56,155 nt of DNA from an uncultured virus (IMG/VR IMGVR_UViG_3300030413_000012) (lineage: Duplodnaviria; Heunggongvirae; Uroviricota; Caudoviricetes), in IMG/VR virus record IMGVR_UViG_3300030413_000012, one strand, 5' to 3'. A program made the translations under genes and the position numbers. Shown here one piece after another: positions 1 to 56,155 of the stretch (the first letter of the stretch is position 1; every line of letters begins with the position of its first letter). The notes beneath the pieces were generated by a model that saw only the letters and a program-made list of their open reading frames with translations, ran no database searches and had not been told where the DNA came from.

Positions 1-2
1 AA

Positions 3-1145
3 TTTATTTTTAACTATCCACATCTTAGCAACATAAAAACTGTTTCAGATGTTCCTCAAAATTCTATTGTCCAAGAAAAACTTAATGGAACAAATGTTGG
101 GATTATTAAACTTGCAGATGGTTCAATAATTTACAGAACCAGAGGAAGCATTGAACCAGATACTTTTATGAATAACATAAATTCTGCAATTTTGGAGGGG
201 GCTAAAACTCTTGTTGGAATAAATGAAGAAGTATTTGATGATTTTAAAAATAAATATATTGATATATTAAGAGAAGGTATAAAAAAATATATTGATGATT
301 TTGGAAATGTGCTGATGACAAGTATTGGAACAGAACTTGTAAATGAATTAAAATATATTTTTATTGAAAATTGGAAAATTGTTGGAATATTTGGAGAACT
401 TATTTCAAAATATAATCCAATTGCAGTTGATTCAAAAATGAAGTTTGGAATGTATCTTGATATGCCAGAAGATTATCAGTTTTATATTTTTGATATAATG
501 GTTACAGATAATGGTGGAAATATTTATTTTGCAGAACCATCAGAACTTAAGTTAATAAGGAAAACAAAGCTTATAAAAACAGTTTCTTCTGAAAAACTTT
601 CAGACATCAATGCAATGCAAAATAAATTTATAAATGAAGAGGGTGTTATTGCAAAATCTTCAGAAGGTTATTATAAAATAAAAAAAGATGAAGTTTTAGA
701 GTGGGAAAGACTTCTTGGAAAATTAAGCAATGTTGTTGTATTTTCAATAAATCATGTTTTTGAAGAGAATGGTTTTTCAACAAATGAAGTTTTAAACAAG
801 AAATTTTTAGAGCCAAATGCAATAGAACCTTTAATTTTGTCTTCATGGCAAGAAATAAAAAATAATGGTGTTTCAGAAAATGATTTGATTGAATATTATG
901 GTTCTAAGAACAAGGTTGATACTGAAATTAAAAGCATTGTTTCAGAAAAAGTATTGATTGGAATTGCAAGTGTTTTAATTAAAAATAATATTACTACAAA
1001 AGAAAAATTATATCTTGCACTTCCTGAATATTTCCAATTTACAGAACCTGTTCTTGATTGGAATGAAAGAAGAGGTAAATTATTACCTATAAAAAGTTAT
1101 GCTTTGATGATAAGAAAAATAATTGGAAATGTAGTAGGAAAATAA
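3..1145 (+). CDS. ATP-dependent RNA ligase (Rnl2/Rnl3-like nucleotidyltransferase), 5'-truncated by the window
   Basis: The frame of ORF 168..1145 is open back to position 3: FIFNYPHL...VQEKLNGTNVGI (motif I KxNG at 78-89), IIYRTRG (Ia), IFGELI (III), FYIFDIM (IIIa), EEGVIAK (IV), YYKIK (V). Confidence 0.75.
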   Translation, partial: FIFNYPHLSNIKTVSDVPQNSIVQEKLNGTNVGIIKLADGSIIYRTRGSIEPDTFMNNINSAILEGAKTLVGINEEVFDDFKNKYIDILREGIKKYIDDFGNVLMTSIGTELVNELKYIFIENWKIVGIFGELISKYNPIAVDSKMKFGMYLDMPEDYQFYIFDIMVTDNGGNIYFAEPSELKLIRKTKLIKTVSSEKLSDINAMQNKFINEEGVIAKSSEGYYKIKKDEVLEWERLLGKLSNVVVFSINHVFEENGFSTNEVLNKKFLEPNAIEPLILSSWQEIKNNGVSENDLIEYYGSKNKVDTEIKSIVSEKVLIGIASVLIKNNITTKEKLYLALPEYFQFTEPVLDWNERRGKLLPIKSYALMIRKIIGNVVGK

Positions 1146-1172
1146 ATAAAAATAACTAGGCTTATAAACTAA

Positions 1173-1862
1173 TTACATATAACCTAAATCTCTTAATTTT
1201 TTCATTATCTTTTCTTTTTCTGCATTTCTACTGGCTCTTTCATTTTCTGATGAACAGGATATTTCTTTTATTATATCAGGAATAGTTTTAGCATTACTGT
1301 TTATTGATGCTGAACAAAATGAGCAACCTAAACTTCTATATCTTTGTCCATCCTTTGCAAAATATAATGGATTAACTTTTATTTTATTTTCTTTTATGTA
1401 GTTCCAAATATCAAGTTCAGTCCAATCCAAAATAGGATGAACTCTTTTTTTATTAAATTCTTTTTCATCTGCTCTTGCTGGATTTTCATCTCTTCTTATT
1501 GCAACAAAAAGAACATCATATTTTTGTTCTAATTTTTTTAATGCATCAATTTTATTATATGAACAACAATTTCCATCTTTTTGATAATTTTCTGGAAGAA
1601 TTGATTTTTCAATAACTAAATTAAAGCCAAGTTCTTTTTGTTTATCTTTTAAAAAAGTATAAGATTCTTTAAATTCAACTCCATTATCAATAAAACCAAC
1701 ATCAAATGGAATTTTGCCAAATGCTTTTTTTATTAAATGCAATAAAACAGTGCTATCCTTTCCAAGACTAAACATTACTATTGGTTTTTTAAATTTAGTT
1801 ACTGTTTCTTTAATTATACTTATTGATTTATGTTCTTTATATTCCAAATCTTCTGTAATCAT
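1173..1862 (-). CDS. PAPS/APS reductase family protein (CysD/CysH-like PP-loop protein)
   Basis: PP-loop FSLGKDS, AIRRDENPARA, RVHPILDWTELDIWNYI, RYRSLGCSFC, CysD-like C-terminus MKKLRDLGYM; CC...CxxC cysteine motif. Confidence 0.85.
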   Translation of the reverse strand: MITEDLEYKEHKSISIIKETVTKFKKPIVMFSLGKDSTVLLHLIKKAFGKIPFDVGFIDNGVEFKESYTFLKDKQKELGFNLVIEKSILPENYQKDGNCCSYNKIDALKKLEQKYDVLFVAIRRDENPARADEKEFNKKRVHPILDWTELDIWNYIKENKIKVNPLYFAKDGQRYRSLGCSFCSASINSNAKTIPDIIKEISCSSENERASRNAEKEKIMKKLRDLGYM

Positions 1863-1911
1863 TTTATTTCCTTTTTTATATTCTTATATTTATATAATTA
1901 TTTGTTTAAAA

Positions 1912-1995
1912 TGCTGGTGATAGGATTTGCACCTATGAAGTCCTAAGACAAAAGGGTTTAAGCCTTTCCAGTTTGACTGCTTCTGATACACCAGC
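1912..1995 (-). tRNA. tRNA-Leu (anticodon TAA), long variable arm, no encoded CCA
   Basis: Reverse complement folds as GCTGGTG/CACCAGC acceptor stem + discriminator A, D arm, AAAGG-CT TAA AC-CCTTT anticodon arm, GTC-TTAG-GAC variable arm, ATAGG-TGCAAAT-CCTAT T arm. TTTAAATA box at 2031-2024 upstream. Confidence 0.88.
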
Positions 1996-2051
1996 ATATA
2001 TTTATAATATCTTTTTATTTATATATTTAAAGATACTTTTTTTATTTTAAT

Positions 2052-2356
2052 ATGAATATTATGTTAAAAATAGAATGGATTGATAAAACCTGGAGAGAAG
2101 ATTTAATTTGGTGTCCTTCACAACTTTATAGAAAATGTAAAATTTCTGATGAAAAAAATCAAAAAATAGTAACTTTATATTTGAGATGGAGACATGATGA
2201 CCCCTGGACAATGTCTATATTAAATGAAGATGAATCAGATTTTATTATATATAACAGGAAGATTTTGATTATTTTAAAGCAGATGACTTTAAATTAGCAG
2301 AAAAAGAAGCTGAAAAAATAATAGAAAAATATGGAGAAAAAGTATTAGCAGTATAA
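2052..2356 (+). pseudogene. Small hypothetical protein, apparently frameshifted near 2245-2255
   Basis: ORF 2052..2297 (WCPSQLY...YLRWRHDDPW) ends in poor-looking sequence, while another frame from ~2255 reads QEDFDYFKADDFKLAEKEAEKIIEKYGEKVLAV to a stop at 2356. The shift lies in an ATATAT run. Confidence 0.5.
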
Positions 2357-2368
2357 ATAAAAAATAAT

Positions 2369-2827
2369 TTATTTCTTTTGTAAATTTGCAAAAGTTTCAT
2401 TTTTTAGCTCTTTTATTAAATCTGACCATATGAATATAATTTGGTTATAAGGAACATCTGTTTTTGGTGCTGTTTCAATTATCTCTTTTATTAAATTAAA
2501 AAAACCCTTATCAGTCATATTATCAGTTGCCATTGCATTTAAGATATATTCAAATAAAACATTTATCTCTTTTAATAAAAACACTGAATGTCCAGAAAGA
2601 TGTAATTGTTTCATAAAAATAACAAAAGCTGTTCTTTTATTACCATTTAAAAAAATATGACCTGTTGTTATTAAATAAGCAAGTTTGCAGGCTTTTTTAA
2701 CACTAGCAGGCTCTTCTTGATTTATACCTGAAATAAAAAAAGCATTTCCTTCATTTATAATAATGCCTTCTTCACCAACTAATTTATTAACCTGAACCAA
2801 TTCATTTACAAATTTTATTTCTTGCAT
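2369..2827 (-). CDS. Doc-like (Fic/Doc family) toxin
   Basis: Doc-type motif HIFLNGNKRTA, preceded by KKACKLAYLI; 152 aa. Confidence 0.8.
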   Translation of the reverse strand: MQEIKFVNELVQVNKLVGEEGIIINEGNAFFISGINQEEPASVKKACKLAYLITTGHIFLNGNKRTAFVIFMKQLHLSGHSVFLLKEINVLFEYILNAMATDNMTDKGFFNLIKEIIETAPKTDVPYNQIIFIWSDLIKELKNETFANLQKK

Positions 2828-3130: not shown

Positions 3131-3173
3131 CAGGTTTTGTTATATTGTTATTTATTTACTATTTATTATATTG

Positions 3174-3260
3174 CACATATAATATTGTCACATATAATAT
3201 TGTCACATATAATATTGTCACATATAATATTGTCACATATAATATTGTCACATATAATAT
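3174..3260. repeat. Tandem array of a 15-bp unit CACATATAATATTGT (5 perfect copies + 12-nt partial), iteron-like
   Basis: Units start at 3174, 3189, 3204, 3219, 3234 and 3249. Degenerate copies continue to ~3320 and recur near 3555-3590. Confidence 0.95.
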
Positions 3261-3393
3261 ATTTATCAAATAATATATTATCACCTAAGTATATTATTAT
3301 CAGATATAATATTATCAGATAGAATGACAAGAAGTTGTCTAACTCTTAAGGATATATACATATTATGCATTAGATATATATGTAATAGTTAAC

Positions 3394-3470
3394 ATAGATT
3401 GAGACCTTAAATGGATGGTCCCTGCACTATATGTGCAGGGACCATTGATTTGGGAACTCAATCCATCTAT
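3394..3470. repeat. Long hairpin with a perfect 13-bp GC-rich core
   Basis: ATGGTCCCTGCAC (3415-3427) / GTGCAGGGACCAT (3433-3445), extended outward by GATTGAG/CTCAATC. Confidence 0.85.
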
Positions 3471-3697
3471 ACTAAAGAAGTAATATGCTTATAATAATAT
3501 CAAACAATATTATGTGTTATAATAATATGCTTATATATATAACACATTATTATGAGACATATAATATATCTGACAATAATATTATCTAACAAAATAACAT
3601 ACTCTATTTGAGGATTGTCTAATATTACCTAAAACTTAGACAATTGTCATATAAAAATATTTTTATATACTTAAATATAAGTATGCTTGTTAATTAA

Positions 3698-4404
3698 GCT
3701 TCCTCCACTTCAATCCCAACCACTCTTTTATCCAGTTCTTTGGTCTTTCAGGAGGAAGCAGGGTGTTCCTTCCAGTCCTGCACCCTTCCATCCAAATCCA
3801 ACCCCTATTTTTCTTATTATAAAGATTCCTCATTTTGTAATAGAAAAGATAACCTTCATTTAAAGCCCTTTTTTAGCCAATTCTAGCCATTTTAGTCTTT
3901 CTGGGTATTAAGGTATTGGGTATTAACCTAAACCCACCCACAGCTCAATTCTGTGCAATTCTGAGCATTCTACCAAGCTGCTTACCCCTCCTCTGGCAAA
4001 ACCCTCTTAGTCTTCCTTCAAAGCATTATAGAGTCTCTAAAAATTACTTGTTCTGTGAGGCATTTCATCATAATTGCACAGAATGGGATATAGAAGCTCA
4101 CATCTCTTGGGTAGGTAGGAGTGAGGTGCATTGAGATATGCTGCCACAGCTCAAATTAGAGCCCTTTATAGGCATTATACAAGCCTTAACTGTTGTCTGA
4201 AAACAAGCCATTTAACCTTTTATGGACTAAATGGGTCTCAAATGACTTGCTCTAAAATTAACTTCCATGAAAATGAAAAATATTCTCTCAGAAATCTTTA
4301 CAATTACTCAGAAATGCACCTGCAGGCTCTTATACTTTGAACCCATATAACTATATAGTGTAAATGGAGATGCTGTTGTAGGTCAAATTTGGGGCATCTA
4401 TGGG
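3698..4404. ncRNA. Candidate large structured RNA or ssDNA element
   Basis: GC-richer than its flanks, with no credible ORF. Helices: 3698-3706/3751-3759, 3760-3765/3781-3786, 3948-3960/4072-4084, 3927-3940/4108-4119, 4124-4132/4313-4321, 4208-4214/4228-4234, 4342-4347/4399-4404, 4368-4373/4394-4399. Confidence 0.35.
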
Positions 4405-4749
4405 CATTCTACTAGACTTTTATCTAAAAATAACATAAAGGCTCAGGCTTTTTTGAACACCAATCATACCAACTGTATATTATTTTATACTTTAGGTTAT
4501 TTTGGTGCTACAAATATTATCAAATGATAATAAAAGTTAATCAGTCTATTTATATTTTATTATGTATAAAATAGGGTTTGTGCTGCCCAATCTAACAGTT
4601 TTGTTATACTGGAGTGATTAAAACTTGTTTTTTGAAACCATTTTTTTATAAAAAATTGTCTTAAAATTAAAAAAAACCAAGCTAAGAGGCTCTCTTATTT
4701 ATCAAAGTCTTCATTTTATTTTATTAAAAAATTTATAAAAAAGAGAATC

Positions 4750-4757: not shown

Positions 4758-4779
4758 TTTTATAGTTTATTATTTTTTT

Positions 4780-6807: not shown

Positions 6808-6822
6808 AATATATTTATATGG

Positions 6823-8610: not shown

Positions 8611-9081
8611 TTATTCTGTCACAAAAGTAAAGGCTGTTTCTGGTTGGTTAGGGTTCATTTGTGTATAAAAATCCTGTTTTAGAGCTTCTTCTCCATACAA
8701 AACTTTTACAAATTTCATGTTTTTGTCAATTGAGCCATCTGTGTATTTTAGTTCCATTCCAAATAAATAACTTTCTTGTTCATATTTTTCAGCAAGCTTT
8801 TTTATAAACTTCTCATCTAATTTTAAAAAATATTTTTCTTCTAAATATGGGTCACTTATAAAAATACTTGGTTCTTTTGCAAGTGTTCCATCCTCATATT
8901 TATATCTTCCAAAAACTTCTGTTACTTTATAGCCAACAGATGTTATATCCTGAACAAGTTCTTTTGTTTTGCTTTCTTCTTCTGGTGTTCCTTTTATTTT
9001 CTGGGTAGAGGCACTCAATATTGCAAAGTTTCCTGTTTCTATTATTTTTTTCATTTCTTCAAATTCCATATTCATCAACAT
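8611..9081 (-). CDS. Hypothetical protein, DUF3293-like (common in viruses)
   Basis: FAILSA...GRYKY...KEPSIFI...LAEKYEQESYL pattern. Confidence 0.6.
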   Translation of the reverse strand: MLMNMEFEEMKKIIETGNFAILSASTQKIKGTPEEESKTKELVQDITSVGYKVTEVFGRYKYEDGTLAKEPSIFISDPYLEEKYFLKLDEKFIKKLAEKYEQESYLFGMELKYTDGSIDKNMKFVKVLYGEEALKQDFYTQMNPNQPETAFTFVTE

Positions 9082-30693: not shown

Positions 30694-33600
30694 TTAACTG
30701 AATATTTCATGGAAAAGATTTAAATATTCATTAAATCTAAATATATTTTTTGGAACAAGTCCTGAGCTTGATTTAGTATTATATAAATCTGTAAAAAGAA
30801 CATAATACTGTTCAATTTTTTCATTTGCAATATCATTTGTTTGATTTGAAAATTGTGTAAAATATTCTGATAATACTCTTATTTGTATCCTTTTTTCATT
30901 ATATAGTATTTTTTCTTTTAAGAAGTTTTCTTGTTCTTGTGGATATATTATTTCTTTATTTGTATCTATATTGTGAACATAAATGAAATTATTATTTATT
31001 GTTGATTTGCTAAAGTAGTCTTTTTTGGGTGATGGTTCTATTTTTATATTTTCATTTTCAATTGTCCATAATTGAGTTGAATCTGTGCTTGGAACATATA
31101 CATAAAAACTACCATTTGTTTTCATTTCTTTGATTCTAAATGAAATATCATTTTGTTCTTCAATAATGTCACCCAACAATAGATTTGAATATTCTCTTTT
31201 GATTTTTTCTATTAAAAATTTATTATATATTGCAATCTGGTCCTGTAATGAACTTTTTACATAGAACATCTCTGGTCCAAATATTTCTTCAAGTTCTGGT
31301 GAAGCCTGAACTTCTTTATAACCATTTTTTAACAAATAAATTGATTCATCAATATTTATTCCTTCACCAAATATTTGTTCCTTGTTACTATCAAGAGAAT
31401 AAATACCAGCATCTTTTATAACAAAATTTCTAACCTGTTCTTCATTATAAGAAGAACCTGCTATAACACTTCTTTCTATATTTGATTTTATATCTCTAAG
31501 TGTATCAAGTATCAAAGAATAATAACTTATAAGTTTTTCTTCATAATCACTTGAAATACCTTGTTCTTTTTTTGCAGTTATCTCTGTTTCAAGCTCTTCT
31601 ATCTTTTTTCTGTTGTTTATTATTTCAACAGGAAGCATTCTTAACAATGAATCTGGATTTGATTCTGAAAATTTTACTTCATTTTTTGTAAGCATGAATT
31701 TTATTCTATAATTATCATCTTTAAATCTTAATATTCCTCTTGCTGCTTTTCCTTCTGGTGTTAAGGCAAGTTTATTTGAGCCAGCATAATTTTTAAGAAA
31801 ATAAATATCATCATCATTAAGTTTGAAAAGTTGTTTTAATGAATTCATAACTGAATCTTCTCCCTGAATTCTATAAAGATATGCAAATTGGATGTTTTCA
31901 ACCAATGCTCTGCCTTCATCACTATCAAAGTCTTTTATTTGTTGTGTTGTTATTATTAACCCCAATCTAAATTTTCTTGCTGTTTTTGCTATTATTTTTA
32001 TGTATTGTGAACCAAGCATAGACAATACTTTCCAGCCTTCATCAATGAGGAATATCTTGTCTTCTGTTAAACCAGTTTTCATTGTTTTTATAACATAGTT
32101 CATAATTACATAAGTAACCAATATTTGCAATTTTTCTGGTAACCCTGCTGTATTAAAGGCAATAAACTTGTTTGAAAGATTTATATTTGTTTTACCCATA
32201 AACATTGAATACTCTGGAAGTTTTAATGTTTCACAGGCACTTGTAATTAAGGCAAATGCCTTTTTATAATTTGAAAAATTTATGTCTGCTGCTGTATAGG
32301 TTTTATTATACAAATGCAGTTCATTTTTTTCATTAAAAGTTTTATTTATAGCATCAATATATGCAATAAATTCATTAAGGGTTGGCACAGTTTCATTTGT
32401 AATGTCAGTTATTGAATATATATTTTTAGAATTATAAAAACTTATTATTAATGTTGTTAAAAATTGATTATATATAGGTTCTTGTTTTAATTCATTATGT
32501 TTTTCAGTTGTTACAGTTAAAGCTATAAAATCAGCAATATCATTTATTTTTAGTGAAAAGGCAGTTCCACTTCCTTTATCTTCTATTTCATAATCAGCTT
32601 TATCAAAAATATTTAGAGAAAGTTGTGATTTTTTGTTTTCTTGCAAAACATTTATATATTCACCACCAACCATTTTAGTAACATATAAATATTCAGCTTG
32701 GGGGTCAATGATTATTATTTTTCTATTTTTAAATATAAGATTTCTTGTTAAGAAAGCCTTTGAGGTTGCTGATTTTCCAGAACCCATCATCCCTATTATT
32801 ATACCATTTTGAGAATCAAGGTCCCACAAATCTTTTAGTATTGGCTGACCAGTTCCTATGTAATTTCCAAATATAACTTTATCTGAATTTATAAAAGAGG
32901 GATAAACAAATGGATACAAATGTCCAGTTGCATCATTAACAGAATAAATATAATACATGTAAGTTACAGGGTCAAGTGTATTTATATAATCAAACATTGT
33001 AAACTGTTGTCTATTAGTTGTTTTTTCAAGAATATGTCCTTGTTGTTGTATTGAATGTCTAAAATTTTCATATTCTGGTTGTATTACATTTGTAAAATCA
33101 GAATTTTCATATTTTTTTCTAAAAGCAACATTAAACCTAGTAACAGTTGAGTTTATATCATTTTCAATATTGGTTTGTGTATATTGTAAAAGTTTTAACA
33201 TGCTTTGTGATTCTTTAAGAAGTCTTTCTGCTTTGCTATCTTGCTTATTCACTCTTAATTCTTCTTGATATGTGTTTATTGCTGTTGTTAAATATAAAAT
33301 ATCTCCTCTGATTTTTCTTAGCATTTCATATTTTGGAATATTTTCAAATTTCAAATAATAATCACTATTATCTGAAACAGCATTTGAAACAAATGTTTCT
33401 GGAATTGAAACATTTGCAAGATTAGTTATTTTGAATATTGTTGAAACTGTATTGTCAATTACAGAATATGTTGGTTTAAAAATAACAAAATGAAGACTTA
33501 GTTTTCCCTTTGCTTTAAATAAATTATCATAAAATATTTTTACAGGTGTAATAGTTGCTTTGAATTTTAAATTATCATTGAATTTAATGTTTTGAATTTC

Positions 33601-33696
33601 TTTTCTATAAAGAAAATCATTTAATTTTGTGTGCTGAAGCTGCACAGGATTAAAAACATATTCTAAAACTTGTGATATTTTATTATTAAGCTTCAC
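30694..33696 (-). CDS. virB4: VirB4/TrsE-like type IV secretion ATPase
   Basis: Walker A GMMGSGKS, IIIIDPQAEY...VGGEYI, LNIFD, Walker B IFLIDEGW, ARKFRLGLIITTQ. Confidence 0.9.
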   Translation of the reverse strand: MKLNNKISQVLEYVFNPVQLQHTKLNDFLYRKEIQNIKFNDNLKFKATITPVKIFYDNLFKAKGKLSLHFVIFKPTYSVIDNTVSTIFKITNLANVSIPETFVSNAVSDNSDYYLKFENIPKYEMLRKIRGDILYLTTAINTYQEELRVNKQDSKAERLLKESQSMLKLLQYTQTNIENDINSTVTRFNVAFRKKYENSDFTNVIQPEYENFRHSIQQQGHILEKTTNRQQFTMFDYINTLDPVTYMYYIYSVNDATGHLYPFVYPSFINSDKVIFGNYIGTGQPILKDLWDLDSQNGIIIGMMGSGKSATSKAFLTRNLIFKNRKIIIIDPQAEYLYVTKMVGGEYINVLQENKKSQLSLNIFDKADYEIEDKGSGTAFSLKINDIADFIALTVTTEKHNELKQEPIYNQFLTTLIISFYNSKNIYSITDITNETVPTLNEFIAYIDAINKTFNEKNELHLYNKTYTAADINFSNYKKAFALITSACETLKLPEYSMFMGKTNINLSNKFIAFNTAGLPEKLQILVTYVIMNYVIKTMKTGLTEDKIFLIDEGWKVLSMLGSQYIKIIAKTARKFRLGLIITTQQIKDFDSDEGRALVENIQFAYLYRIQGEDSVMNSLKQLFKLNDDDIYFLKNYAGSNKLALTPEGKAARGILRFKDDNYRIKFMLTKNEVKFSESNPDSLLRMLPVEIINNRKKIEELETEITAKKEQGISSDYEEKLISYYSLILDTLRDIKSNIERSVIAGSSYNEEQVRNFVIKDAGIYSLDSNKEQIFGEGINIDESIYLLKNGYKEVQASPELEEIFGPEMFYVKSSLQDQIAIYNKFLIEKIKREYSNLLLGDIIEEQNDISFRIKEMKTNGSFYVYVPSTDSTQLWTIENENIKIEPSPKKDYFSKSTINNNFIYVHNIDTNKEIIYPQEQENFLKEKILYNEKRIQIRVLSEYFTQFSNQTNDIANEKIEQYYVLFTDLYNTKSSSGLVPKNIFRFNEYLNLFHEIFS

Positions 33697-36618: not shown

Positions 36619-39273
36619 TTAAGTTCTATTTTTATATTCATCTGAAATCCTTAAAATTTCAAGAATCATTTTTCTATTATTTTCAGAATTATAATTATCA
36701 ATATATTCAGTTATAAACAGTCTTGCATCTGTTGAAAATTGTCTGTTAACTTCTATTAACATCATTATTTTTTCTATAAATTGTAAAGTGTTTGTTGAAA
36801 AAGCTTTTGTATTTAATTCATTATCTGGAAGTGAAAGCTGTTCACTAAGTGATGGTTCTAACACATCAGTTAAATAATTTCTTATTTTTATTTCATCTTG
36901 TTCTGTGAAAGAAGCAAGCACAAGTTTTCCTTCATTATTTAATAAATCAAATCCTATTTTTAATGGTGCTAACTGTATTTTTAATTCAGTATTACTTACA
37001 AAATTTTGTGCAAGATATGGTTGTATTTCTGCTGAATATTTATCTTTACCATATTCCATTATATCTGGCAGTTGTGCCCTATTAGGAAATGACTTTATTG
37101 CAGTGGTATCTCTTGAAAGATAATTTCCATCTTCATCAACAAAAAAGTTATCATTATCATATGTAAAAGTAAGCATGAGTGTATTTATAAACTGAAGTAT
37201 ATATTTGTTGAATATTTTTGAGAACCTTGTTTTTTGTGAACTGACATCACCTGATTGTTGCCCAAATAAAACATAATTTCCCAGAGACTCCTGTTTACCA
37301 AAACTTTTCATAAATATTCTCTGGCTGGAAAATATCCATCCTCTATTTCTTAATCTGTCTGTTCTTTGTGCATCTGTCAATACCTTATTTAACACAGCAT
37401 CATCATTTAGATAGTGTGCTTCATCAATAAATACAGCAGTATAACATTCATTTTCAACCATTCCTGGTATTTTTAGTTTTTCACCTCTAACCAATAGATA
37501 ATATATATAAATAATATAAAAACCAACCAAGTCAGGATTAGTTCTTATTGTTATGTAAAAATTGGTCTTCATATTTGATACAATATTTGTTAATATTGTG
37601 TAAAGATTTATTCCATTCTCAAAATCTATTATTTTTTTAGCCAAATTATTATCATATACATTATTTATAAATCTTAATTCTTCACTATCTGGTTTCAAGT
37701 CTTTTCCAAACATTGAATAGTCATGTATCCAATTTGCAAAATCAAAATTTGTTGGAAATACAGAAAATCCTGTTTTTTCCATAAAAGTTATTATTTTATT
37801 TGTTACAAAATCAGCAATAACAGAAATAAACTTATCTGATGATATTGAACTCTTTTGTGATAAAACTCTAAAATAAACAGTTAACATTAAATTTAATCCT
37901 TCTTTATATTCTTGTTTTCCAGCATTATATTCAGCACTATTTTCTTTCCCATTTTTTTGTTCTTGTGTTAATTTTACAAGTTCTAGTCTTAATTGATTGT
38001 CAAGTATATTTAGTGTTGTAAAGCTTCTTATGTTTTCAAGTTCATCAGGATTATTATATATAACAATTGGAACAATATCATTTCCAAATCTATTTTTAAA
38101 TCCTCCAATACTTGGGTTTAAAAGTTTTAATGCTTCTTGTGGAATGTCTTCTTTTGTAAACATTATATTCTTTTCTGGTTTCAATGTTCCCTTATATCTT
38201 TCTGAATTCATTATCTCATTTAATATTCTGTCAGAACTTTCAGGTTTTTTAATCAGGGTTGAACTATAGTCTATACTTCCACTTTTTATATCAAATGCAA
38301 AAATATTTACACCATGATACAATAAACTGTGTATCAAATTATTATTAAATGATGTTTTACCACTACCAGTTTTTCCAGATATAAACATATGTGTTGTTAA
38401 AATTTTGTTAAAATCTTTTGGTGAGAAATAAATTTTTACTGGTGCTTTATTTTGATTTATATCATATTCCCAACTATATGTATTATCAACACTATTACCA
38501 TCAACTTTTATTTTATAACCAACAAAATAATGAGGGTCTATTTTTGTTTTATGTTGTGATTTTATTTCTTTAACTTTTTGTGTTATATCAGACATTGGTT
38601 CTGAAAGTATTTTTGTGTTTGATGTAAAAAATTCTGTTGCTACTGTGTTTTCTGATTTTGATGATTTTTTAACTTCTTCTGTTTCTTTTTTATCAAATAC
38701 TGTTTTTTCTGGTTCAACCTGTTGTTCAGTTATAATTTGTTCTTTTTTAATTGAACTTTTTTTAAAATTGTCAGCAGGTCCATTTTCATAATCTTCAAAC
38801 TGAACTTCTTTATAATTTAAAAGACTAATACTATTTATTTTTTTGATTCCTTCAACTGATGCACTTAATATTATTCTTGCAAGAGAGTCATCAATAAGTG
38901 TTTTCCCAATTCCAAATTTATCAATAATTGTTCCAAGTTCTTTATAATTATCTATTGTAAAAGTTGTTTCAGCAACAGCATATTTTACAGAATCAATGTC
39001 AAATAATATAATTATTGAAAGGTCATCTCCATTGTCATTTTTAAAAAGAAATTTTGATTGGGAATCAAAGGCAGTTATTACAAAAGAATATAATAATATA
39101 TCATTTCCAGTAATGAAATATACATCTTTTTCTTTTGTTTTAAATCTATATAAAGAATATCTTTTATTACCAAAAACCATAGAAGTGATTGGACTTATGT
39201 CAACATTATTTGACCTTTTAACTGGTTTTTCAGTTAGGTCAGTTTCTTTTTTCAAAAATGGAAAATTCATCAA
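36619..39273 (-). CDS. FtsK/HerA-superfamily ATPase, candidate coupling protein (VirD4/TraG-like) or HerA-like translocase
   Basis: HMFISGKTGSGKTS, FAFDIKSG, Walker B VFIDEAHY, RLRNRGWIFSSQR; no obvious N-terminal TM. Confidence 0.75.
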   Translation of the reverse strand: MMNFPFLKKETDLTEKPVKRSNNVDISPITSMVFGNKRYSLYRFKTKEKDVYFITGNDILLYSFVITAFDSQSKFLFKNDNGDDLSIIILFDIDSVKYAVAETTFTIDNYKELGTIIDKFGIGKTLIDDSLARIILSASVEGIKKINSISLLNYKEVQFEDYENGPADNFKKSSIKKEQIITEQQVEPEKTVFDKKETEEVKKSSKSENTVATEFFTSNTKILSEPMSDITQKVKEIKSQHKTKIDPHYFVGYKIKVDGNSVDNTYSWEYDINQNKAPVKIYFSPKDFNKILTTHMFISGKTGSGKTSFNNNLIHSLLYHGVNIFAFDIKSGSIDYSSTLIKKPESSDRILNEIMNSERYKGTLKPEKNIMFTKEDIPQEALKLLNPSIGGFKNRFGNDIVPIVIYNNPDELENIRSFTTLNILDNQLRLELVKLTQEQKNGKENSAEYNAGKQEYKEGLNLMLTVYFRVLSQKSSISSDKFISVIADFVTNKIITFMEKTGFSVFPTNFDFANWIHDYSMFGKDLKPDSEELRFINNVYDNNLAKKIIDFENGINLYTILTNIVSNMKTNFYITIRTNPDLVGFYIIYIYYLLVRGEKLKIPGMVENECYTAVFIDEAHYLNDDAVLNKVLTDAQRTDRLRNRGWIFSSQRIFMKSFGKQESLGNYVLFGQQSGDVSSQKTRFSKIFNKYILQFINTLMLTFTYDNDNFFVDEDGNYLSRDTTAIKSFPNRAQLPDIMEYGKDKYSAEIQPYLAQNFVSNTELKIQLAPLKIGFDLLNNEGKLVLASFTEQDEIKIRNYLTDVLEPSLSEQLSLPDNELNTKAFSTNTLQFIEKIMMLIEVNRQFSTDARLFITEYIDNYNSENNRKMILEILRISDEYKNRT

Positions 39274-47066: not shown

Positions 47067-48026
47067 ATGGAGGAAGAATTAAAGAACAGGGTGCCAGTTA
47101 ACAAGAACATTCTTGTTGTTGGTTATGAACATTTTATTTCATCTGATTTAGTTTCACTTTTACAAGCAAAAAATAATAAAGTAACATATAGTCTGGAAGA
47201 CACTCAGATTGATTATTCAAAACTATTAGTTGGCTCATATATTACTATTTATAATTCAAAAGAATTTATTTCTGATATTAAAAAAAGTGATATAATTTAC
47301 TTTTTACAATTTGCTAACAGAAATAAAAAAATTGAACAAAAAGAAATTGAAACATTTAAAAAAATAGTAACACTTGTTAAAAATACAGATAAAGATATAA
47401 AAATAGTTTTGTTGAGCAGTATTGATGTATATGGAACAAAAAGAAAAGATGAAACTTGTTTTGTTGATAGCCCACTATCACCAAATAATTATAATGGTGT
47501 AATGCTTGCATTTGTTGAAGAGTTTTTATTTAATACAATTGAAAATTATTCAATAATAAGAAGTTCTGAAATAATGACCAGAGAAATAATAAAAGAATTT
47601 TATCCACTTTTTTCTGACTTGTTTAAACAAAAAATATTTTTAATACCTAAAGCATCAAATCATATTAACATGTCAAGTAAATCAACTATATTGTCTGCTT
47701 TATTAATAGCTGGTGCTGAAGAAAATAAAGAATTTATAATAAATATTACAGAAACACCAAGTCTAACCTTTACTGAATTTTTTGAAAAACTTTATTTTTA
47801 TGCAAAAAGAGATTTAAAAATAGAAATACCAAAAAGATATATAAATTTATTTTCATGGAAAACAAAATTTCATAATATACCTAAATTTTTATTTAATGAC
47901 CAAAAAATTTCAACAATAGAAGCCAATACTGCTGATGTGATTTTTAGTTGGAGTTCAGATTTGTTTATACAAAAATTGCTAGAAAATTATAACAAAGCTG
48001 TTTCTTTAGAAAATAAATCCATATAA
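47067..48026 (+). CDS. Extended SDR / NAD-dependent epimerase-like protein, degenerate
   Basis: NILVVGYEHFISSDLV (GxxGxxG eroded), LLSSIDVYG, PNNYNGVM (YxxxK lost), YSIIRSS. Confidence 0.7.
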   Translation: MEEELKNRVPVNKNILVVGYEHFISSDLVSLLQAKNNKVTYSLEDTQIDYSKLLVGSYITIYNSKEFISDIKKSDIIYFLQFANRNKKIEQKEIETFKKIVTLVKNTDKDIKIVLLSSIDVYGTKRKDETCFVDSPLSPNNYNGVMLAFVEEFLFNTIENYSIIRSSEIMTREIIKEFYPLFSDLFKQKIFLIPKASNHINMSSKSTILSALLIAGAEENKEFIINITETPSLTFTEFFEKLYFYAKRDLKIEIPKRYINLFSWKTKFHNIPKFLFNDQKISTIEANTADVIFSWSSDLFIQKLLENYNKAVSLENKSI

Positions 48027-48481
48027 ATATTTGAAAAAAGAACATCAAGATTATATGGAATATCAGAATTATTATATTCAAAAACATAAGTGCTATCATT
48101 AATTGTTAATTTATTATTTGAATATAATTTGATTAAATCCTTTTTAAAAAAGACAGCTATTTTCTTTGTATTTGTATCTTTTAATATTATTAATGGGATT
48201 CTTATGTTTTTATATGAAAAACTTTTCCATTTATTTATTTGTTTTTCATTAAGACTTGATAAATACAATATCCCTTTTTTTCTTGCTTTTAATTCAGAAT
48301 TAAAAACAACATTTTTAAAAAATACTAAATAATCAGCAACATCAACTCTTTTCATTTTGCTACCACTATCTTTTAACCTTATAATGTAGCTTTCATTTTC
48401 ATCTTTTGTCTGTATTGGATATATTTTATTAAATGAATTCACAAACTGTCTTTCAAAGTATTTTCCACTATTAGTCATCAA
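47987..48481 (-). CDS. RecU/Hjc-like Holliday junction resolvase
   Basis: NSGKYFE...RLKD...VADYLVF...ELKAR, a PD-(D/E)XK layout typical of viral RecU-like resolvases. Confidence 0.7.
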   Translation of the reverse strand: MMTNSGKYFERQFVNSFNKIYPIQTKDENESYIIRLKDSGSKMKRVDVADYLVFFKNVVFNSELKARKKGILYLSSLNEKQINKWKSFSYKNIRIPLIILKDTNTKKIAVFFKKDLIKLYSNNKLTINDSTYVFEYNNSDIPYNLDVLFSNIYMDLFSKETALL

Positions 48482-50894: not shown

Positions 50895-50899
50895 ATAAA

Positions 50900-53699: not shown

Positions 53700-53892
53700 T
53701 ACTAGAAGGTCTATTATTTAAAATAAAAACAGTTTATAAAAAAATATTTATTGTTTTTATTTGTGTGGTGTTCTTGCCACAAATCCTTCTTAGTAATAAA
53801 ATAAAGATGCCAAAATCTCTTTCTATCTTTTCTTTGCTAATCTTTTTAGCTGTTATTTTTTAGCTGCTAATAAATATTCATTTAAAAGATTG

Positions 53893-54372
53893 TTAGCTGT
53901 TAATTATATTTCTAAATAATTCATTAACAAGCTTATTTACTTCATCTTCAAACTCAGTTAATTCTGGATTATTAAAATTAACTTTTATTGTTTCTTCTGG
54001 TGAATGTGGTCTTTCTGGCAAATTAGAAAAAGTATCTTTAAATTCAACTTCCATAAAAACTATTTCAGTTTTTGTTTCTGAAACTGATTCATTTATAATT
54101 GCAATAATTGAAAAATTTGTTTCACTTGGAATCAAAACAGGTCTTATTTTGTTTGGATAAAGTTTTTTAGTTGTTAAATTTATATGAAGTCCAACTTCCA
54201 GATTTGTAGTGAGTGGCAAATCAGGCTGAATAAATACTCTCTTTATAACAAAATCAAAAGGATAAACATGAGTATCTTCTATATTTTTATCATTTGGAAG
54301 TAAGAATTTGCCAATAATAACAGCCCCTTCTTTTGTATCCTTTTTAATTAAAAAATCAACAGGAATTATCAA
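53893..54372 (-). CDS. Hypothetical protein
   Basis: 159 aa; AGGTGTGAT motif before a TTG start. Confidence 0.65.
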   Translation of the reverse strand: MIIPVDFLIKKDTKEGAVIIGKFLLPNDKNIEDTHVYPFDFVIKRVFIQPDLPLTTNLEVGLHINLTTKKLYPNKIRPVLIPSETNFSIIAIINESVSETKTEIVFMEVEFKDTFSNLPERPHSPEETIKVNFNNPELTEFEDEVNKLVNELFRNIINS

Positions 54373-54628
54373 TTAATCACACCTTTTTTACTATTACTTT
54401 ATTATAAAATATTTATTATTATATGTCAATATATAATATTTGTTTATTATTTCATTTTTTTTTATAAACCTGACTGTTTTCATATGATATATGTTCAAAT
54501 ACCATTTAAATATTTTTATAATACAACTATTTTAAATATCTATTTAAAGATTATAAAATAATAGGTGATTACCTGAACAAAGAAAATGAAGAAATATTAA
54601 AAAACAGAATATATGATTTTTTAATCAG

Positions 54629-54760
54629 ATGGAGTTAACTAATCAAACAGTAACCTTTGAAGAATTAATCAACCACTTTAAAGAAGATTCAATAAATGAA
54701 GTGCTAAAAATAGTTAAAGAAATGATTAAGAATAAAGAACTAAATATAAAAAATAGATGA
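54629..54760 (+). CDS. Small helical (wHTH-like) protein translationally coupled to Fic; perhaps the 3' part of a frameshifted gene
   Basis: MELTNQTVTFEELINHFKEDSINEVLKIVKEMIKNKELNIKNR; ATGA overlap at 54757-54760. Confidence 0.4.
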   Translation: MELTNQTVTFEELINHFKEDSINEVLKIVKEMIKNKELNIKNR

Positions 54761-55440
54761 ATGATTTCATGGTTAGAAAAATGACATGGAAAGAGTTTGC
54801 TGTTTCTTTTACCTACAATACAAATAAGATTGAGGGAAGCAAATTAAGTTTTGATGATGTTAAAACTATAATTTATAAAAATATAATACCAATAAATGCA
54901 GATAGAAATGACATTGAGGAATGCTATGGTTTATATAATGCAATAAATGCTATTAAACTTTTAGCAACATCAACAAATATTATTTTATCACCAGCTTTTA
55001 TTAAAGAGATACATTATATGGTATTTTTAAAAACTAAACCATTTGCAGGAAAATTTAGAGAAAAGCCAGCTGAAAATGTTGTAATTGTAAATAATTATGG
55101 AAACATTTTAGCAACACCACCTTCATCTGAAAAAGTAGTATCAGAAATAACAGACCTTTGCAATACAACAAACATACTAAATGAAAATAAGGATGAGCCA
55201 TTTAAATTTCATATAGGGTTTGAAAATATTCATCCTTTTATGGATGGAAATGGAAGAGTTGGAAGACTACTTTTAAATTTTATGTTGTTACAAAGAAAAA
55301 TGAATCCCATAGACATAGAATTTGAAAACAGACTTATTTATTATAGCTGTCTTGAAATGCCCTCTGAGGATTATATTAAGGCACTTAAAAAACTTTATGA
55401 AAAAGAACAAGTAGAAATACTTATACCTAAACCACAATAA
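54757..55440 (+). CDS. Fic-family AMP transferase with an N-terminal autoinhibitory helix (class II)
   Basis: TNKIEG inhibitory motif; HPFMDGNGRVGR catalytic motif. Confidence 0.92.
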   Translation: MNDFMVRKMTWKEFAVSFTYNTNKIEGSKLSFDDVKTIIYKNIIPINADRNDIEECYGLYNAINAIKLLATSTNIILSPAFIKEIHYMVFLKTKPFAGKFREKPAENVVIVNNYGNILATPPSSEKVVSEITDLCNTTNILNENKDEPFKFHIGFENIHPFMDGNGRVGRLLLNFMLLQRKMNPIDIEFENRLIYYSCLEMPSEDYIKALKKLYEKEQVEILIPKPQ

Positions 55441-55608
55441 ATTAAATAAAATAAAAAATATAACATTCATAATTTTATAAAAGAACAGTTACAGTGGTTA
55501 TCATGCTACAAAAATACATGAAATACATTTAAATATATATTGAGCATATAAACTATGATAATATGAAAAAAAAATTTAGTTAGAATTTATTTTAAAAAAT
55601 ATGATTCA

Positions 55609-55818
55609 ATGTTTGATGAGTATGACACTGAAACATTTGGTCTTATTAAAACCAATATTGAAGAATCTGCTACTCTGAAAAAATTATATAATGAATATAT
55701 AGACACCATGAATATAAAAAGAAATAATATAATTGAATTTTGCAATTTTCTAAAAACTAAAAATTATAATGCAACACCTGTATTTTTAGAGTTTGAACTA
55801 TGTGTGGATGATGTTTAA
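55609..55818 (+). CDS. Small hypothetical protein
   Basis: 69-aa ORF with typical codon usage. Confidence 0.5.
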   Translation: MFDEYDTETFGLIKTNIEESATLKKLYNEYIDTMNIKRNNIIEFCNFLKTKNYNATPVFLEFELCVDDV

Positions 55819-55971
55819 TTTTAAAATAAGAATACTTGCAAGGGTTCTTGAAAAAGAGCAAGTTGAAGATGTTAGAAAACTTATAGAACTTTCTTTAAAA
55901 AAGTAGTTTTTATTTAATTTTGTAGATATTTATTTTTAAACTATAATTTTAATAAAAGCTGATGTGATATA

Positions 55972-56061
55972 ATGGCTAAAACACAAGAAGATACAGATGA
56001 AGATGACCTTGATGAGGACTTTGAAGATTTTGATGATGATGGTGAATCTGAAGGAGGCTGA
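55972..56061 (+). CDS. Highly acidic 29-aa micro-protein ending Gly-Gly (not in the ORF track)
   Basis: MAKTQEDTDEDDLDEDFEDFDDDGESEGG; GTGAT motif upstream and TTTTAAA box further upstream. Confidence 0.5.
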   Translation: MAKTQEDTDEDDLDEDFEDFDDDGESEGG

Positions 56062-56109
56062 AGCTGTCTGAAAAATAAATAATTTTAATTTTTTGTTTTA
56101 TTTTTTATT

Positions 56110-56155
56110 GGGTCTGTAACTCAGGTTGGTTAGAGTCCTGCACTTTTAGCAGGAG
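56110..56155 (+). tRNA. 5' half of a tRNA, probably tRNA-Lys(TTT), cut by the window end
   Basis: GGGTCTG-TA-ACTC-AGGTTGGTTA-GAGT-C-CTGCA-CT TTT A; D stem ACTC/GAGT pairs and the D loop has the conserved GG. Confidence 0.75.

What the first reader, a model, noticed from the sequence alone, without database searches (positions are those of the whole stretch)
1..56155. An apparently CpG-free 56-kb segment
Seen: reading through coding regions, intergenic DNA, the GC-richer 3.7-4.4 kb tract and both tRNAs, I found no CG dinucleotide. GC, CC, GG, CA and TG are all common. At about 25% G+C, several hundred CGs would be expected. Zero CG removes all CGN Arg codons and all NCG codons. Established: strong but incomplete CpG depletion occurs in mollicutes with CG-specific methyltransferases (M.SssI, M.MpeI) through 5mC deamination. 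Inference: total loss, even in tRNAs, suggests lethal selection against CG, e.g. a CG-recognising nuclease or defence system in the host or encoded by the element itself (self/non-self discrimination by absence of a dinucleotide), perhaps aided by CpG methylation.
Basis: partly seen in the sequence, partly recalled or inferred. Interest (0 to 1): 0.92.

Follow-up and report, generated by a model that had tools for sequence, protein, structure and literature searches.

The report
CG-free stealth element of mine archaea
This 56-kb piece of a large mobile DNA element from acid-mine-drainage archaea contains not one CG, GATC, GTAC or GGCC, which looks like an extreme way of hiding from DNA-cutting defence enzymes and implies that something in that community reads the bare two-letter word CG.

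Summary
The window has 0 CG where 934 are expected. CG is missing from all three codon phases, from spacers, from a 38%-G+C non-coding tract and from the tRNA sequences.

Low G+C, codon usage and the data set do not explain it. Synonymous shuffles give 245 CG, and a 28%-G+C control plasmid stretch has 458.

The main new result is that GATC, GTAC and GGCC are also totally absent (0 against 75, 59 and 16 expected). CTAG, AGCT and several 6-bp palindromes are depleted.

The only relative whose DNA could be fetched is syntenic at 32-66% protein identity. It also lacks all four words.

The DNA is an archaeal-type, VirB4-carrying, probably extrachromosomal element from mine-drainage metagenomes. It also encodes a phage-type SAM lyase, a known counter-restriction enzyme.

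Best reading: sustained selection for restriction/modification-site avoidance. The CG part needs an unidentified reader of the bare dinucleotide. Decay of methylated cytosine alone cannot explain the three other missing words.

This scan had already called a look-alike ~119-kb record "CG-free" in passing (e1-5355343). It has also noted near-CG-free crAss-like phages.

The parts
1..56155 (.). Whole window: 0 CG, 0 GATC, 0 GTAC, 0 GGCC. CTAG and AGCT are partly depleted. GATATC and GTATAC are absent; CAGCTG, TCATGA and CTGCAG occur once each.
8611..9081 (-). Phage-type S-adenosylmethionine lyase (SAMase) fold, a candidate counter-restriction / counter-methylation enzyme
   Evidence: Pfam PF23780 at E 0.005, 17.2 bits, below the cut-off of 28. 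Atlas feature score 0.92 and structure TM 0.81 to SAM-lyase clusters. 8 of 13 aligned homologues match PF23780, best E 5e-14. AlphaFold2 model with the alignment has pLDDT 90.5. The seven best Foldseek PDB rows are all phage SAM lyases (7ock, 6zm9, 6znb, 8bb1), E 1.1e-3 to 2.5e-2, TM up to 0.61.
30694..33696 (-). VirB4/TraG-type transfer ATPase; the marker gene used to find relatives
   Evidence: Pfam TraG P-loop at 48 bits, DUF87 and AAA_10. 22-27% identity to VirB4/TrsE-type genes of Firmicutes plasmids. Relatives at 47-66% identity.
36619..39273 (-). FtsK/HerA-type ATPase of the transfer cluster
   Evidence: conserved in L001 at 51% identity
39290..41215 (+). Type II/IV secretion (T2SSE/VirB11-like) ATPase
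   Evidence: conserved in L001 at 59% identity
41210..42178 (-). Archaeal-type flap endonuclease FEN1
   Evidence: Pfam XPG_N and XPG_I. NCBIfam fen_arch at E 3e-71, 240 bits, below the cut-off of 352. Nearest structural cluster is Archaea/Nanobdellota.
1911..1996 (-). tRNA-Leu(UAA), CG-free, with T-loop GGUGCAAAUCC
56110..56155 (+). tRNA-like 5' part cut by the window end (U-rich anticodon loop, possibly Lys), CG-free
   Evidence: Read directly from the sequence; not called by any program
1173..1862 (-). PAPS-reductase / CysD-like ATP pyrophosphatase of phage type (BrxP/DndC-like); a possible DNA-modification enzyme
   Evidence: Pfam at 7.6e-34; PHROG 424 at 2e-35; PADLOC BrxP at 1.5e-16 and SspD at 1e-6; NCBIfam CysD subfamily at 175.5 bits, below the cut-off of 195
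3159..3327 (.). Array of 15-bp iterons (CACATATAATATTGT, 5 exact overlapping copies and degenerate ones)
3386..3474 (.). Long hairpin palindrome (42-nt arms around a G+C-rich core), a probable replication-control site
3690..4440 (.). 38%-G+C non-coding tract without CG (25.9 expected); nature unknown
   Evidence: No Rfam family. Folding z-scores 0.44 and -1.8.
2369..2827 (-). Fic/Doc-family protein
54757..55440 (+). Fic-family protein
47987..48481 (-). Weak Hjc-like (PD-(D/E)xK) nuclease candidate
   Evidence: Pfam Hjc at E 0.0014, 18.9 bits, below the cut-off of 21.1; not followed up

Best explanation
The window is part of a large archaeal-type, conjugation-like mobile element from acid-mine-drainage communities. 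It is most likely extrachromosomal. Its whole sequence has been rewritten, mostly silently, so that it offers no target to sequence-reading defence enzymes.

Four words are forbidden outright: CG, GATC, GTAC and GGCC. Several more are depleted (CTAG, AGCT, GATATC, GTATAC, CAGCTG). Purifying selection removes every new occurrence.

GATC, GTAC and GGCC are ordinary archaeal restriction/methylation sites. The CG part cannot be the sum of a few 4-bp sites, so it implies a reader of the bare dinucleotide somewhere in the element's host range. It could instead be a CG methyltransferase whose mark would expose the element to methylation-dependent restriction in the next host. A phage-type SAM lyase on the element adds a second, enzymatic layer of counter-defence.

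Shown: the absences, their silent coding accommodation, their conservation in one diverged relative, and the SAM-lyase fold. Inferred: selection by restriction or modification, the extrachromosomal nature, and the existence of a CG reader.
For: 1. CG is 0 against 934 expected, in every codon phase and in non-coding DNA.
2. In 200 synonymous-codon shuffles that keep proteins and codon usage, CG averages 244.8 (minimum 214), GATC 63.9 (min 48), GTAC 87.9 (min 68) and GGCC 9.7 (min 4). All four are observed at 0. CTAG is 30 against 64.9 and AGCT 97 against 149.1. CATG is not depleted (71 against 66.0).
3. Codon choice depends on context. C-ending codons before G-starting codons are 0 of 2175, against 13-21% elsewhere. 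GAT before a C-starting codon is 0 of 33. GTA before C is 0 of 76. TCN after NGA is 0 of 22.
4. Relative L001 is syntenic over 11 genes at 32-66% protein identity. It has 0 CG (233.5 expected), 0 GATC (23.2), 0 GTAC (7.3) and 0 GGCC (4.2). It also has absences of its own: CATCC/GGATG 0 against 12.8 and GAATTC 0 against 5.4.
5. Controls: a 27.9%-G+C plasmid stretch with a remote VirB4 has 458 CG (ratio 0.48), 69 GATC, 84 GTAC and 17 GGCC. The 10 bacterial loci fetched by the same profile have CG ratios of 0.51-1.25.
6. Only 26% of the control's CGs (120 of 458) lie in CG-containing 4-bp palindromes, so site-by-site avoidance would leave most CGs in place.
7. GATC, GTAC, GGCC, CGCG, AGCT and CTAG are the persistent Type II methylation motifs of archaea, and Thermoplasmatales carry 5 Type II methyltransferase genes per genome (PMC10609329, passages read).
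8. The element encodes a SAM-lyase-fold protein. T3 SAMase is a counter-defence against restriction-modification and BREX (abstract starts of PMC7877911 and 10.1101/2023.02.27.530186 in the listing).
11.1% of all possible substitutions would, so about 3 are expected.
10. Mobile-element character: VirB4, FtsK/HerA and T2SSE ATPases, two Fic/Doc proteins, a phage-type PAPS reductase, an iteron array, its own tRNAs for its commonest codons, and no translation or ribosomal genes. There is no close homologue in 185,579 species genomes.
Against: - No nuclease or methyltransferase that reads CG, GATC, GTAC or GGCC was found in the window. The host and its enzymes are unknown.
- I know of no characterised restriction enzyme that cuts at bare CG (recalled, not searched in REBASE).
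- DNA of only one relative (14.9 kb) could be fetched. The other seven relatives are known as proteins only.
- The variant test is weak. One search gives P(0) = 0.07 for CG alone. For all four words I get about 0.04 by hand from the 11.1%.
- CA and TG are raised (1.34, 1.32), as deamination would predict, although GC (1.31) and CC/GG (1.23) are raised too.
The window has no terminal repeat.
- Only 56 kb of what may be about 118 kb was seen.
Confidence: 0.58

Rival explanations
1. Mutational purge. A CG-specific cytosine methyltransferase in the host methylates every CG, and deamination converts them to TG/CA faster than they re-arise. This would be enzymatic if the methyltransferase is starved of SAM, which the element's own SAM lyase could cause. 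Selection would be needed only for the other three words.
For: CA and TG are the most over-represented dinucleotides (1.34, 1.32). A SAM-lyase-fold gene is present. CpG under-representation with a CpG methyltransferase is reported for Mycoplasma penetrans (passage of PMC11282364). That C5 methyltransferases deaminate their target at low SAM is recalled from the literature and was not checked here.
Against: Zero in 71 kb means a CG ratio below 0.0026. By my own arithmetic on the counts, not a tool result, CG decay would then have to be on the order of a thousand times faster than the TG-to-CG and CA-to-CG back-transitions. No methyltransferase was found in the window. GC, CC and GG are raised almost as much as CA and TG. 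The mechanism cannot explain the equally complete loss of GATC and GTAC, so a second process would still be needed.
Confidence: 0.15
2. Sum of many ordinary sites. There is no CG reader. The element has met so many different CG-containing restriction specificities (CGCG, TCGA, ACGT, CCGG, GCGC and non-palindromic ones) that together they cover all 16 NCGN contexts.
For: The element demonstrably avoids several unrelated sites, and the relative has extra avoided sites of its own. CGCG methyltransferases persist in some archaea (PMC10609329).
Against: Only 26% of CGs in a composition-matched control, or 31% by base composition, lie in CG-containing 4-bp palindromes. By my own count of the 16 NCGN contexts, the remaining 12 form six reverse-complement pairs, and each pair would need its own efficient enzyme. 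Other real archaeal motifs (CTAG, AGCT) are only partly depleted, so avoidance is not indiscriminate.
Confidence: 0.1
3. Lineage-wide trait. The window is a piece of the chromosome of a very AT-rich DPANN-type archaeon whose whole genome lacks these words, so nothing is specific to a mobile element.
For: Archaeal FEN1, tRNA genes and a sugar nucleotidyltransferase are present. Near-identical proteins sit on contigs up to 118 kb.
Against: There are no ribosomal, translation or other core genes in 56 kb. Most ORFs are without family, and the recognisable ones are typical mobile-element and phage-type genes. No close homologue of the marker gene exists in any of 185,579 species genomes. A cell would need CG-free rRNA.
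Confidence: 0.1
4. Element-encoded nucleases. The element, possibly a virus, carries frequent-cutting nucleases for CG, GATC, GTAC and GGCC without methyltransferases. It uses them to destroy host or competitor DNA and is itself immune because it lacks the sites.
For: Total absence of sites is what such self-immunity requires. A weak Hjc-like nuclease candidate and many unknown ORFs exist. Chlorella viruses are recalled to encode 2-4-bp cutters, including GATC and GTAC enzymes (not checked here).
Against: No restriction-type nuclease was recognised in the window. No virion genes were found. The VirB4 transfer cluster suggests a persisting plasmid-like lifestyle, which would not tolerate host DNA destruction.
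Confidence: 0.08
5. Artefact of sequencing, assembly or data handling.
For: None found.
Against: The stretch stands in contigs of 8 public runs of 2011-2015. Three of the four runs laid cover it with near-identical contigs. A relative from another record shows the same absences. Parts of contigs of the same runs that do not fit the window contain CG (loose ends). Long ORFs are intact.
Confidence: 0.01

Closest known systems
Restriction-site avoidance by dsDNA phages and archaeal viruses (Rusinov et al. 2018, PMC6286503; abstract and passages read)
   Same: Complete or nearly complete elimination of short palindromic Type II sites from mobile DNA by selection. The paper reports this for about one tenth of viral genomes.
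   Different: Here the excluded word is a dinucleotide (934 expected occurrences) on top of three 4-bp sites. The carrier looks like a conjugative-type archaeal element, not a lytic virus. The host enzymes are unknown. The term 'dinucleotide' does not occur in that paper.
CpG depletion in bacteria with CpG methyltransferases (Mycoplasma penetrans, as cited in PMC11282364, passage read; M.SssI and M.MpeI recalled)
   Same: CG is the depleted word; CA and TG are raised.
   Different: As I recall, depletion there is strong but incomplete, is genome-wide in a cell, and is explained by 5mC deamination. Here it is absolute, is accompanied by three absent non-CG words, is found in archaeal-type DNA, and no methyltransferase was seen.
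Phage T3 SAMase / SAM lyase counter-defence (PMC7877911 and bioRxiv 10.1101/2023.02.27.530186; abstract starts seen in the listing; PDB 7ock, 6zm9, 6znb, 8bb1)
   Same: ORF 8611-9081 has the same fold, and its homologues match the same Pfam family.
   Different: Sequence identity to the solved enzymes is 8-18%. Activity is untested. It sits on an archaeal-type element beside site avoidance, two strategies that are usually discussed as alternatives.
Near-CG-free crAss-like phages noted earlier in this scan (e1-5977746, e1-7848065; AI notes, unchecked)
   Same: Almost total loss of CG by silent rewriting in genes, spacers and tRNA genes of a mobile genome, with the cause unidentified.
   Different: Here the loss is 100%, in an archaeal-type element, with three further absent words.
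Archaeal VirB4-type transfer systems
   Same: VirB4-like, FtsK/HerA-like and secretion ATPases in one conserved cluster.
   Different: No relaxase or recognisable replication protein in the window. Identity to known VirB4 genes is only 22-27%.

Membership tests
Restriction-site avoidance in mobile DNA | The word is significantly rarer than expected from composition | tested here: met
   CG 0/934; GATC 0/75.4; GTAC 0/58.9; GGCC 0/16.1. 0 against 244.8, 63.9, 87.9 and 9.7 in synonymous shuffles.
Restriction-site avoidance in mobile DNA | [quoted passage not shown] | not testable with these tools
   Host unknown and no genome held. Indirect only: GATC, GTAC and GGCC are persistent archaeal methylation motifs (PMC10609329). 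No known enzyme for bare CG (recalled).
Restriction-site avoidance in mobile DNA | The carrier is a mobile dsDNA element that does not protect the sites by its own methyltransferase | tested here: inconclusive
   Mobile-type gene content and no methyltransferase domain in the ORFs scanned. Only 56 kb of a probably larger element was seen.
Restriction-site avoidance in mobile DNA | Avoidance is maintained in relatives (selection, not accident) | tested here: met
   L001, at 32-66% protein identity, has all four words at zero. This is one relative only.
CpG depletion by CG methylation and deamination | A CG-specific cytosine methyltransferase in the genome | tested here: not met
   None in the window. 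Host not testable.
CpG depletion by CG methylation and deamination | CG deficit mirrored by a specific TG/CA excess | tested here: inconclusive
   CA 1.34 and TG 1.32, but GC 1.31 and CC/GG 1.23.
CpG depletion by CG methylation and deamination | The process affects CG only | tested here: not met
   GATC, GTAC and GGCC are equally absent.
Phage SAM lyase family (PF23780) | Pfam match above the curated cut-off | tested here: not met
   17.2 bits against a cut-off of 28. However, 8 of 13 aligned homologues match at E up to 0.01, best 5e-14.
Phage SAM lyase family (PF23780) | Fold of the solved phage SAM lyases | tested here: met
   Model pLDDT 90.5. The seven best PDB rows are SAM lyases, probability 0.98-1.00, TM 0.34-0.61. 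Atlas TM 0.81.
Phage SAM lyase family (PF23780) | Catalytic activity on SAM / active-site residues | not tested
   No residue-level comparison or assay was done.
Conjugative type IV secretion system | VirB4-type ATPase | tested here: met
   TraG P-loop at 48 bits against a cut-off of 25.8; tblastn to TrsE/DUF87 genes of conjugative plasmids.
Conjugative type IV secretion system | Relaxase and origin of transfer | tested here: not met
   No relaxase family in any ORF scanned. It may lie outside the window.

The most novel reading that the evidence does not exclude
Acid-mine-drainage archaea, or the element itself, possess a DNA-targeting system that recognises the bare dinucleotide CG. It could be a nuclease with 2-bp specificity, or a CG methyltransferase coupled to methylation-dependent restriction. 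This family of ~50-120-kb elements survives by being the first natural replicons known to lack a dinucleotide completely. That would be self/non-self discrimination by the absence of a 2-bp word, a prokaryotic counterpart of CpG sensing in animals.
Probability: 0.35. Interest if true: 0.92.

Novelty: new variant of a known kind. Interest (0 to 1): 0.8.

Why it matters
Site avoidance is the oldest known anti-restriction trick, but it has been described for sites of 4 bp and more. A natural replicon that has removed all of roughly 930 expected CGs, in genes, spacers and tRNA sequences, and keeps them out over deep divergence, shows two things. Selection can police a 2-bp word at a standing cost of about one forbidden mutation in nine. 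And some still unknown enzyme in an archaeal community reads CG as such.

If it is a nuclease or methyltransferase with 2-bp specificity, it would also be a useful tool.

The list of forbidden words is in effect a read-out of the restriction landscape of uncultured acid-mine archaea. It gives a cheap sequence signature (no CG, GATC, GTAC or GGCC) for fishing this element family out of metagenomes.

Tried and rejected
- **Whole genome or host:** none is held. L001's record is not held either. A handle search only showed that the control genomes give no handles. The host-versus-element comparison could therefore not be run.
- **Close DNA relatives:** megablast of 24 kb against plasmids and phages found nothing.
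- **IMG/VR scans:** five scans found nothing. They used VirB4 alone, the VirB4 profile, the FtsK/HerA ATPase, FEN1 and the palindrome core.
- **Species genomes:** only remote bacterial VirB4 genes were found. They served as composition controls.
- **The G+C-richer tract as a structured RNA:** no Rfam family and no significant folding (z 0.44 and -1.8). Rejected for lack of evidence.
- **A C/D-box sRNA-like hit:** 19 bits, E 0.13. It lies inside a 29-codon acidic ORF. Rejected.
- **Single-sequence AlphaFold2 of the SAM-lyase candidate:** unusable, pLDDT 42, so it was repeated with an alignment. Sequence search of the PDB and tblastn against phages gave nothing for it.
- **Run X2:** no contig was laid. 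No conclusion is drawn.
- **Strain-variant test:** too few variants (27) for more than a hint.
- **Literature:** eight full-text searches turned up no description of a CG-free natural prokaryotic or archaeal replicon or of this element family. Supplements were not consulted.
- **Code 4 (TGA=Trp):** it does not improve the ORFs, so a mollicute-type code is rejected.

Full report
**1.

The window (56,155 bases, 25.8% G+C) contains no CG at all, where base composition predicts 934. The other C/G dinucleotides are common: GC 1219, CC 1191, GG 1105, CA 3456 and TG 3680.

I called 56 ORFs greedily. For codon statistics I kept the 43 ORFs of at least 100 aa outside the non-coding tract at 3.1-4.4 kb (15,810 codons). 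That dropped 13 small or doubtful ORFs. In those 43 genes:
- All CGN and NCG codons are unused.
- The positional base frequencies predict 170, 231 and 240 CGs at codon positions 1-2, 2-3 and 3-1.
- The remaining 8,674 bases predict 114.

Bases 3690-4440 are 38% G+C, with 25.9 CG expected and none found.

There is one complete tRNA gene, tRNA-Leu(UAA) at 1911-1996 on the minus strand.

**2. It is not a by-product of low G+C, codon usage or the data set**

- Shuffling synonymous codons among the 43 genes keeps every protein and the overall codon usage. In 200 shuffles CG averages 244.8 and is never below 214.
- Codons ending in C make up 13-21% of C/T-ending codons before A-, C- or T-starting codons. 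Before G-starting codons they are 0 of 2175.
- A 50-kb stretch of a 27.9%-G+C bacterial plasmid with a remote VirB4 homologue has 458 CG, a ratio of 0.48.
- Ten bacterial loci fetched with the same protein profile have CG ratios of 0.51-1.25.
- The stretch is present in contigs of 8 mine-drainage runs from 2011-2015.
- Three of the four runs laid cover it with near-identical contigs. Parts of other contigs of those runs that do not fit the window do contain CG.
- An artefact is therefore very unlikely.

**3. CG is not alone: the main new result**

Against a second-order Markov expectation, three 4-bp palindromes are also completely absent:

| Word | Observed | Expected |
|---|---|---|
| GATC | 0 | 75.4 |
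| GTAC | 0 | 58.9 |
| GGCC | 0 | 16.1 |

The synonymous-shuffle null gives 63.9, 87.9 and 9.7, with minima of 48, 68 and 4. Other words behave differently:
- CTAG (30 against 64.9) and AGCT (97 against 149.1) are partly depleted.
- CATG is not depleted (71 against 66.0) and TGCA is enriched (251 against 207.5).
- Among 6-bp palindromes, GATATC (0/8.4) and GTATAC (0/9.2) are absent. CAGCTG (1/10.0), TCATGA (1/7.6) and CTGCAG (1/6.5) are nearly absent.

The accommodation is silent and depends on context:
- Asp is never GAT before a C-starting codon (0 of 33, although GAT is 529 of 615 elsewhere).
- Val is never GTA before C (0 of 76).
- Ser after an NGA codon is always AGY (22 of 22).

So 8 of the 16 possible 4-bp palindromes are excluded outright, five of them through CG.

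**4. The same zeros in a deeply diverged relative**

The VirB4-like ATPase has eight close database relatives: its own cluster and seven at 47-66% identity. They sit on contigs of 9.6-58 kb, and cluster members sit on contigs up to 118 kb. DNA could be fetched for only one of them, L001 (14,910 bases of a 45.9-kb contig).

L001 is collinear with window 25.8-45.1 kb over 11 genes at 32-66% protein identity. At that divergence synonymous sites should be saturated (my inference). Yet L001 has 0 CG (233.5 expected), 0 GATC (23.2), 0 GTAC (7.3) and 0 GGCC (4.2). It also has absences of its own: CATCC/GGATG 0 against 12.8 and GAATTC 0 against 5.4.

The exclusion is therefore policed continuously. 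The list of excluded words has a shared core and lineage-specific additions, as expected if it tracks the enzymes each lineage meets.

**5. What the DNA is**

It reads in the standard code. Recognisable genes are:
- a VirB4/TraG-type ATPase, an FtsK/HerA-type ATPase and a T2SSE-type ATPase in one conserved cluster;
- an archaeal-type FEN1 (nearest structural cluster Archaea/Nanobdellota; fen_arch E 3e-71, below its cut-off);
- an RNA ligase, an RlaP-type nucleotidyltransferase and a J-domain protein;
- two Fic/Doc proteins, a sugar nucleotidyltransferase and a phage-type PAPS-reductase/BrxP-like protein.

Further points:
- Most ORFs, including three of 1127-1772 aa, match nothing.
- There are no ribosomal or translation genes, no virion genes and no DNA methyltransferase or restriction-nuclease domain.
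- A 15-bp iteron array (3159-3327) and a long hairpin palindrome (3386-3474) look like replication control.
- tRNA-Leu(UAA) decodes the commonest Leu codon (TTA, 585 of 1318 Leu codons). The cut tRNA-like end may be Lys(UUU), and AAA is 1234 of 1391 Lys codons. This is typical of AT-rich mobile elements in less AT-rich hosts (inference).
- No close homologue of the marker gene exists in 185,579 species genomes.
A sister note (e1-5355339) read the cluster as chromosomal.
- I could not test circularity. The window has no terminal repeat.

I put roughly 70-75% on an extrachromosomal element. That figure is my judgement.

**6. A counter-defence enzyme on board**

ORF 8611-9081 (156 aa) is a SAM-lyase-fold protein. 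The evidence:
- a weak Pfam match (PF23780, E 0.005, below the cut-off);
- Atlas feature score 0.92 and structural TM 0.81 to SAM-lyase clusters;
- 16 relatives in the representative library;
- 8 of the 13 aligned sequences match PF23780, best E 5e-14;
- an AlphaFold2 model with pLDDT 90.5;
- its seven best PDB matches are all phage SAM lyases (7ock, 6zm9, 6znb, 8bb1), with E 1.1e-3 to 2.5e-2 and TM up to 0.61.

T3 SAMase is a counter-defence against restriction-modification and BREX (abstract starts in the listing). The element thus invests in evading SAM-dependent defence by two routes.

**7. Mechanism**

Deamination of methylated cytosine cannot remove GATC or GTAC. The complete absence of four words, with silent context-dependent recoding, is the signature of selection against recognition sites. 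This is the classical anti-restriction strategy (Rusinov et al. 2018, PMC6286503; abstract and passages read).

GATC, GTAC and GGCC, together with CGCG, AGCT and CTAG, are exactly the persistent Type II methylation motifs catalogued in archaea. Thermoplasmatales, the dominant acid-mine archaea (dominance recalled), carry 5 Type II methyltransferase genes per genome (PMC10609329; passages and tables read).

The CG part is the unusual one:
- Only 26% of CGs in the control (120 of 458), or 31% by composition, lie in CG-containing 4-bp palindromes. A handful of ordinary enzymes would leave most CGs in place.
- A neutral methylation-decay equilibrium would need CG loss on the order of a thousand-fold faster than its re-creation to give a ratio below 0.0026. 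This is my arithmetic on the counts.

I therefore infer a reader of bare CG in the element's host range. It could be a nuclease. It could also be a CG methyltransferase whose mark would be fatal in a next host with methylation-dependent restriction.

The cost is visible. 0 of the 27 variants seen among strains do so, against about 3 expected. That is only a hint, with P about 0.04 by hand. For CG alone the expectation is 2.4 and P is 0.07.

**8. Limits**

- The host, its enzymes and its own word frequencies are unknown.
- Only one relative's DNA and only 56 kb of the element were available.
- No CG-reading protein was found.
- CA and TG are raised (1.34, 1.32), which deamination also predicts, though GC (1.31) and CC/GG (1.23) are raised nearly as much.

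The rivals are scored in their own section. They are a mutational purge (possibly by SAM-starved methyltransferases), the sum of many ordinary sites, a lineage-wide chromosomal trait, and element-encoded nucleases.

**9. Novelty**

Eight full-text searches found no description of a natural prokaryotic or archaeal replicon without CG, or of this element family. Within this scan, the CG-free state of the look-alike record was mentioned in passing (e1-5355343). Near-CG-free crAss-like phages were also reported (e1-5977746, e1-7848065). The additional total absence of GATC, GTAC and GGCC and the SAM lyase do not appear in the notes these look-ups returned.

I class it as a new variant of a known kind: site avoidance pushed to a dinucleotide. 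It carries a substantial chance (about 0.35) of pointing to a new kind of CG-reading system.

Noticed in passing
window 3159-3474: A 15-bp iteron array (CACATATAATATTGT; 5 exact overlapping copies plus degenerate ones) is followed by a long hairpin palindrome with 42-nt arms and a G+C-rich core. This is a probable replication-control region.
   Followed up: partly
window 3690-4440: A 750-bp non-coding tract at 38% G+C, C-rich on the plus strand, sits in a 26% G+C element. It has no Rfam family, no significant fold and no long ORF, and it is still free of CG. Its nature is unknown.
   Followed up: partly
window 55972-56061 (+): A 29-codon ORF encodes an extremely acidic peptide (MAKTQEDTDEDDLDEDFEDFDDDGESEGG) just upstream of the cut tRNA. 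Its charge pattern recalls small DNA-mimic anti-restriction proteins. This is pure speculation.
   Followed up: no
window 1911-1996 (-): The tRNA-Leu(UAA) has the T-loop GGUGCAAAUCC, with G where the near-universal U55 stands and A at position 57. Part of this avoids the usual UUCG.
   Followed up: no
window 26055-26174 and about 41124-41273: In the laid runs, short stretches are shared with contigs of about three times higher depth (346.6 against 104.8 in X5). These contigs continue into unlike, CG-containing sequence. They may be a fragment shared with another replicon (host or competitor) and could help to find the host.
   Followed up: no
window 1173-1862 (-): A stand-alone PAPS-reductase/CysD-like protein of the phage type (PHROG 424, BrxP- and SspD-like). 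It could be a DNA-modification enzyme, that is, a third anti-restriction layer.
   Followed up: partly
L001 (whole locus, 14,910 bases): The relative additionally lacks CATCC/GGATG (0 against 12.8 expected) and GAATTC (0 against 5.4), which the window does not avoid (GGATG 39, GAATTC 10). These are lineage-specific avoided sites.
   Followed up: partly
window 26113 and 27426: Two in-frame 3-base deletions distinguish strains inside the 1248-aa ORF 25851-29597, and variants cluster at 25.1-26.3 kb. This looks like a fast-evolving part of a giant surface-type protein.
   Followed up: no
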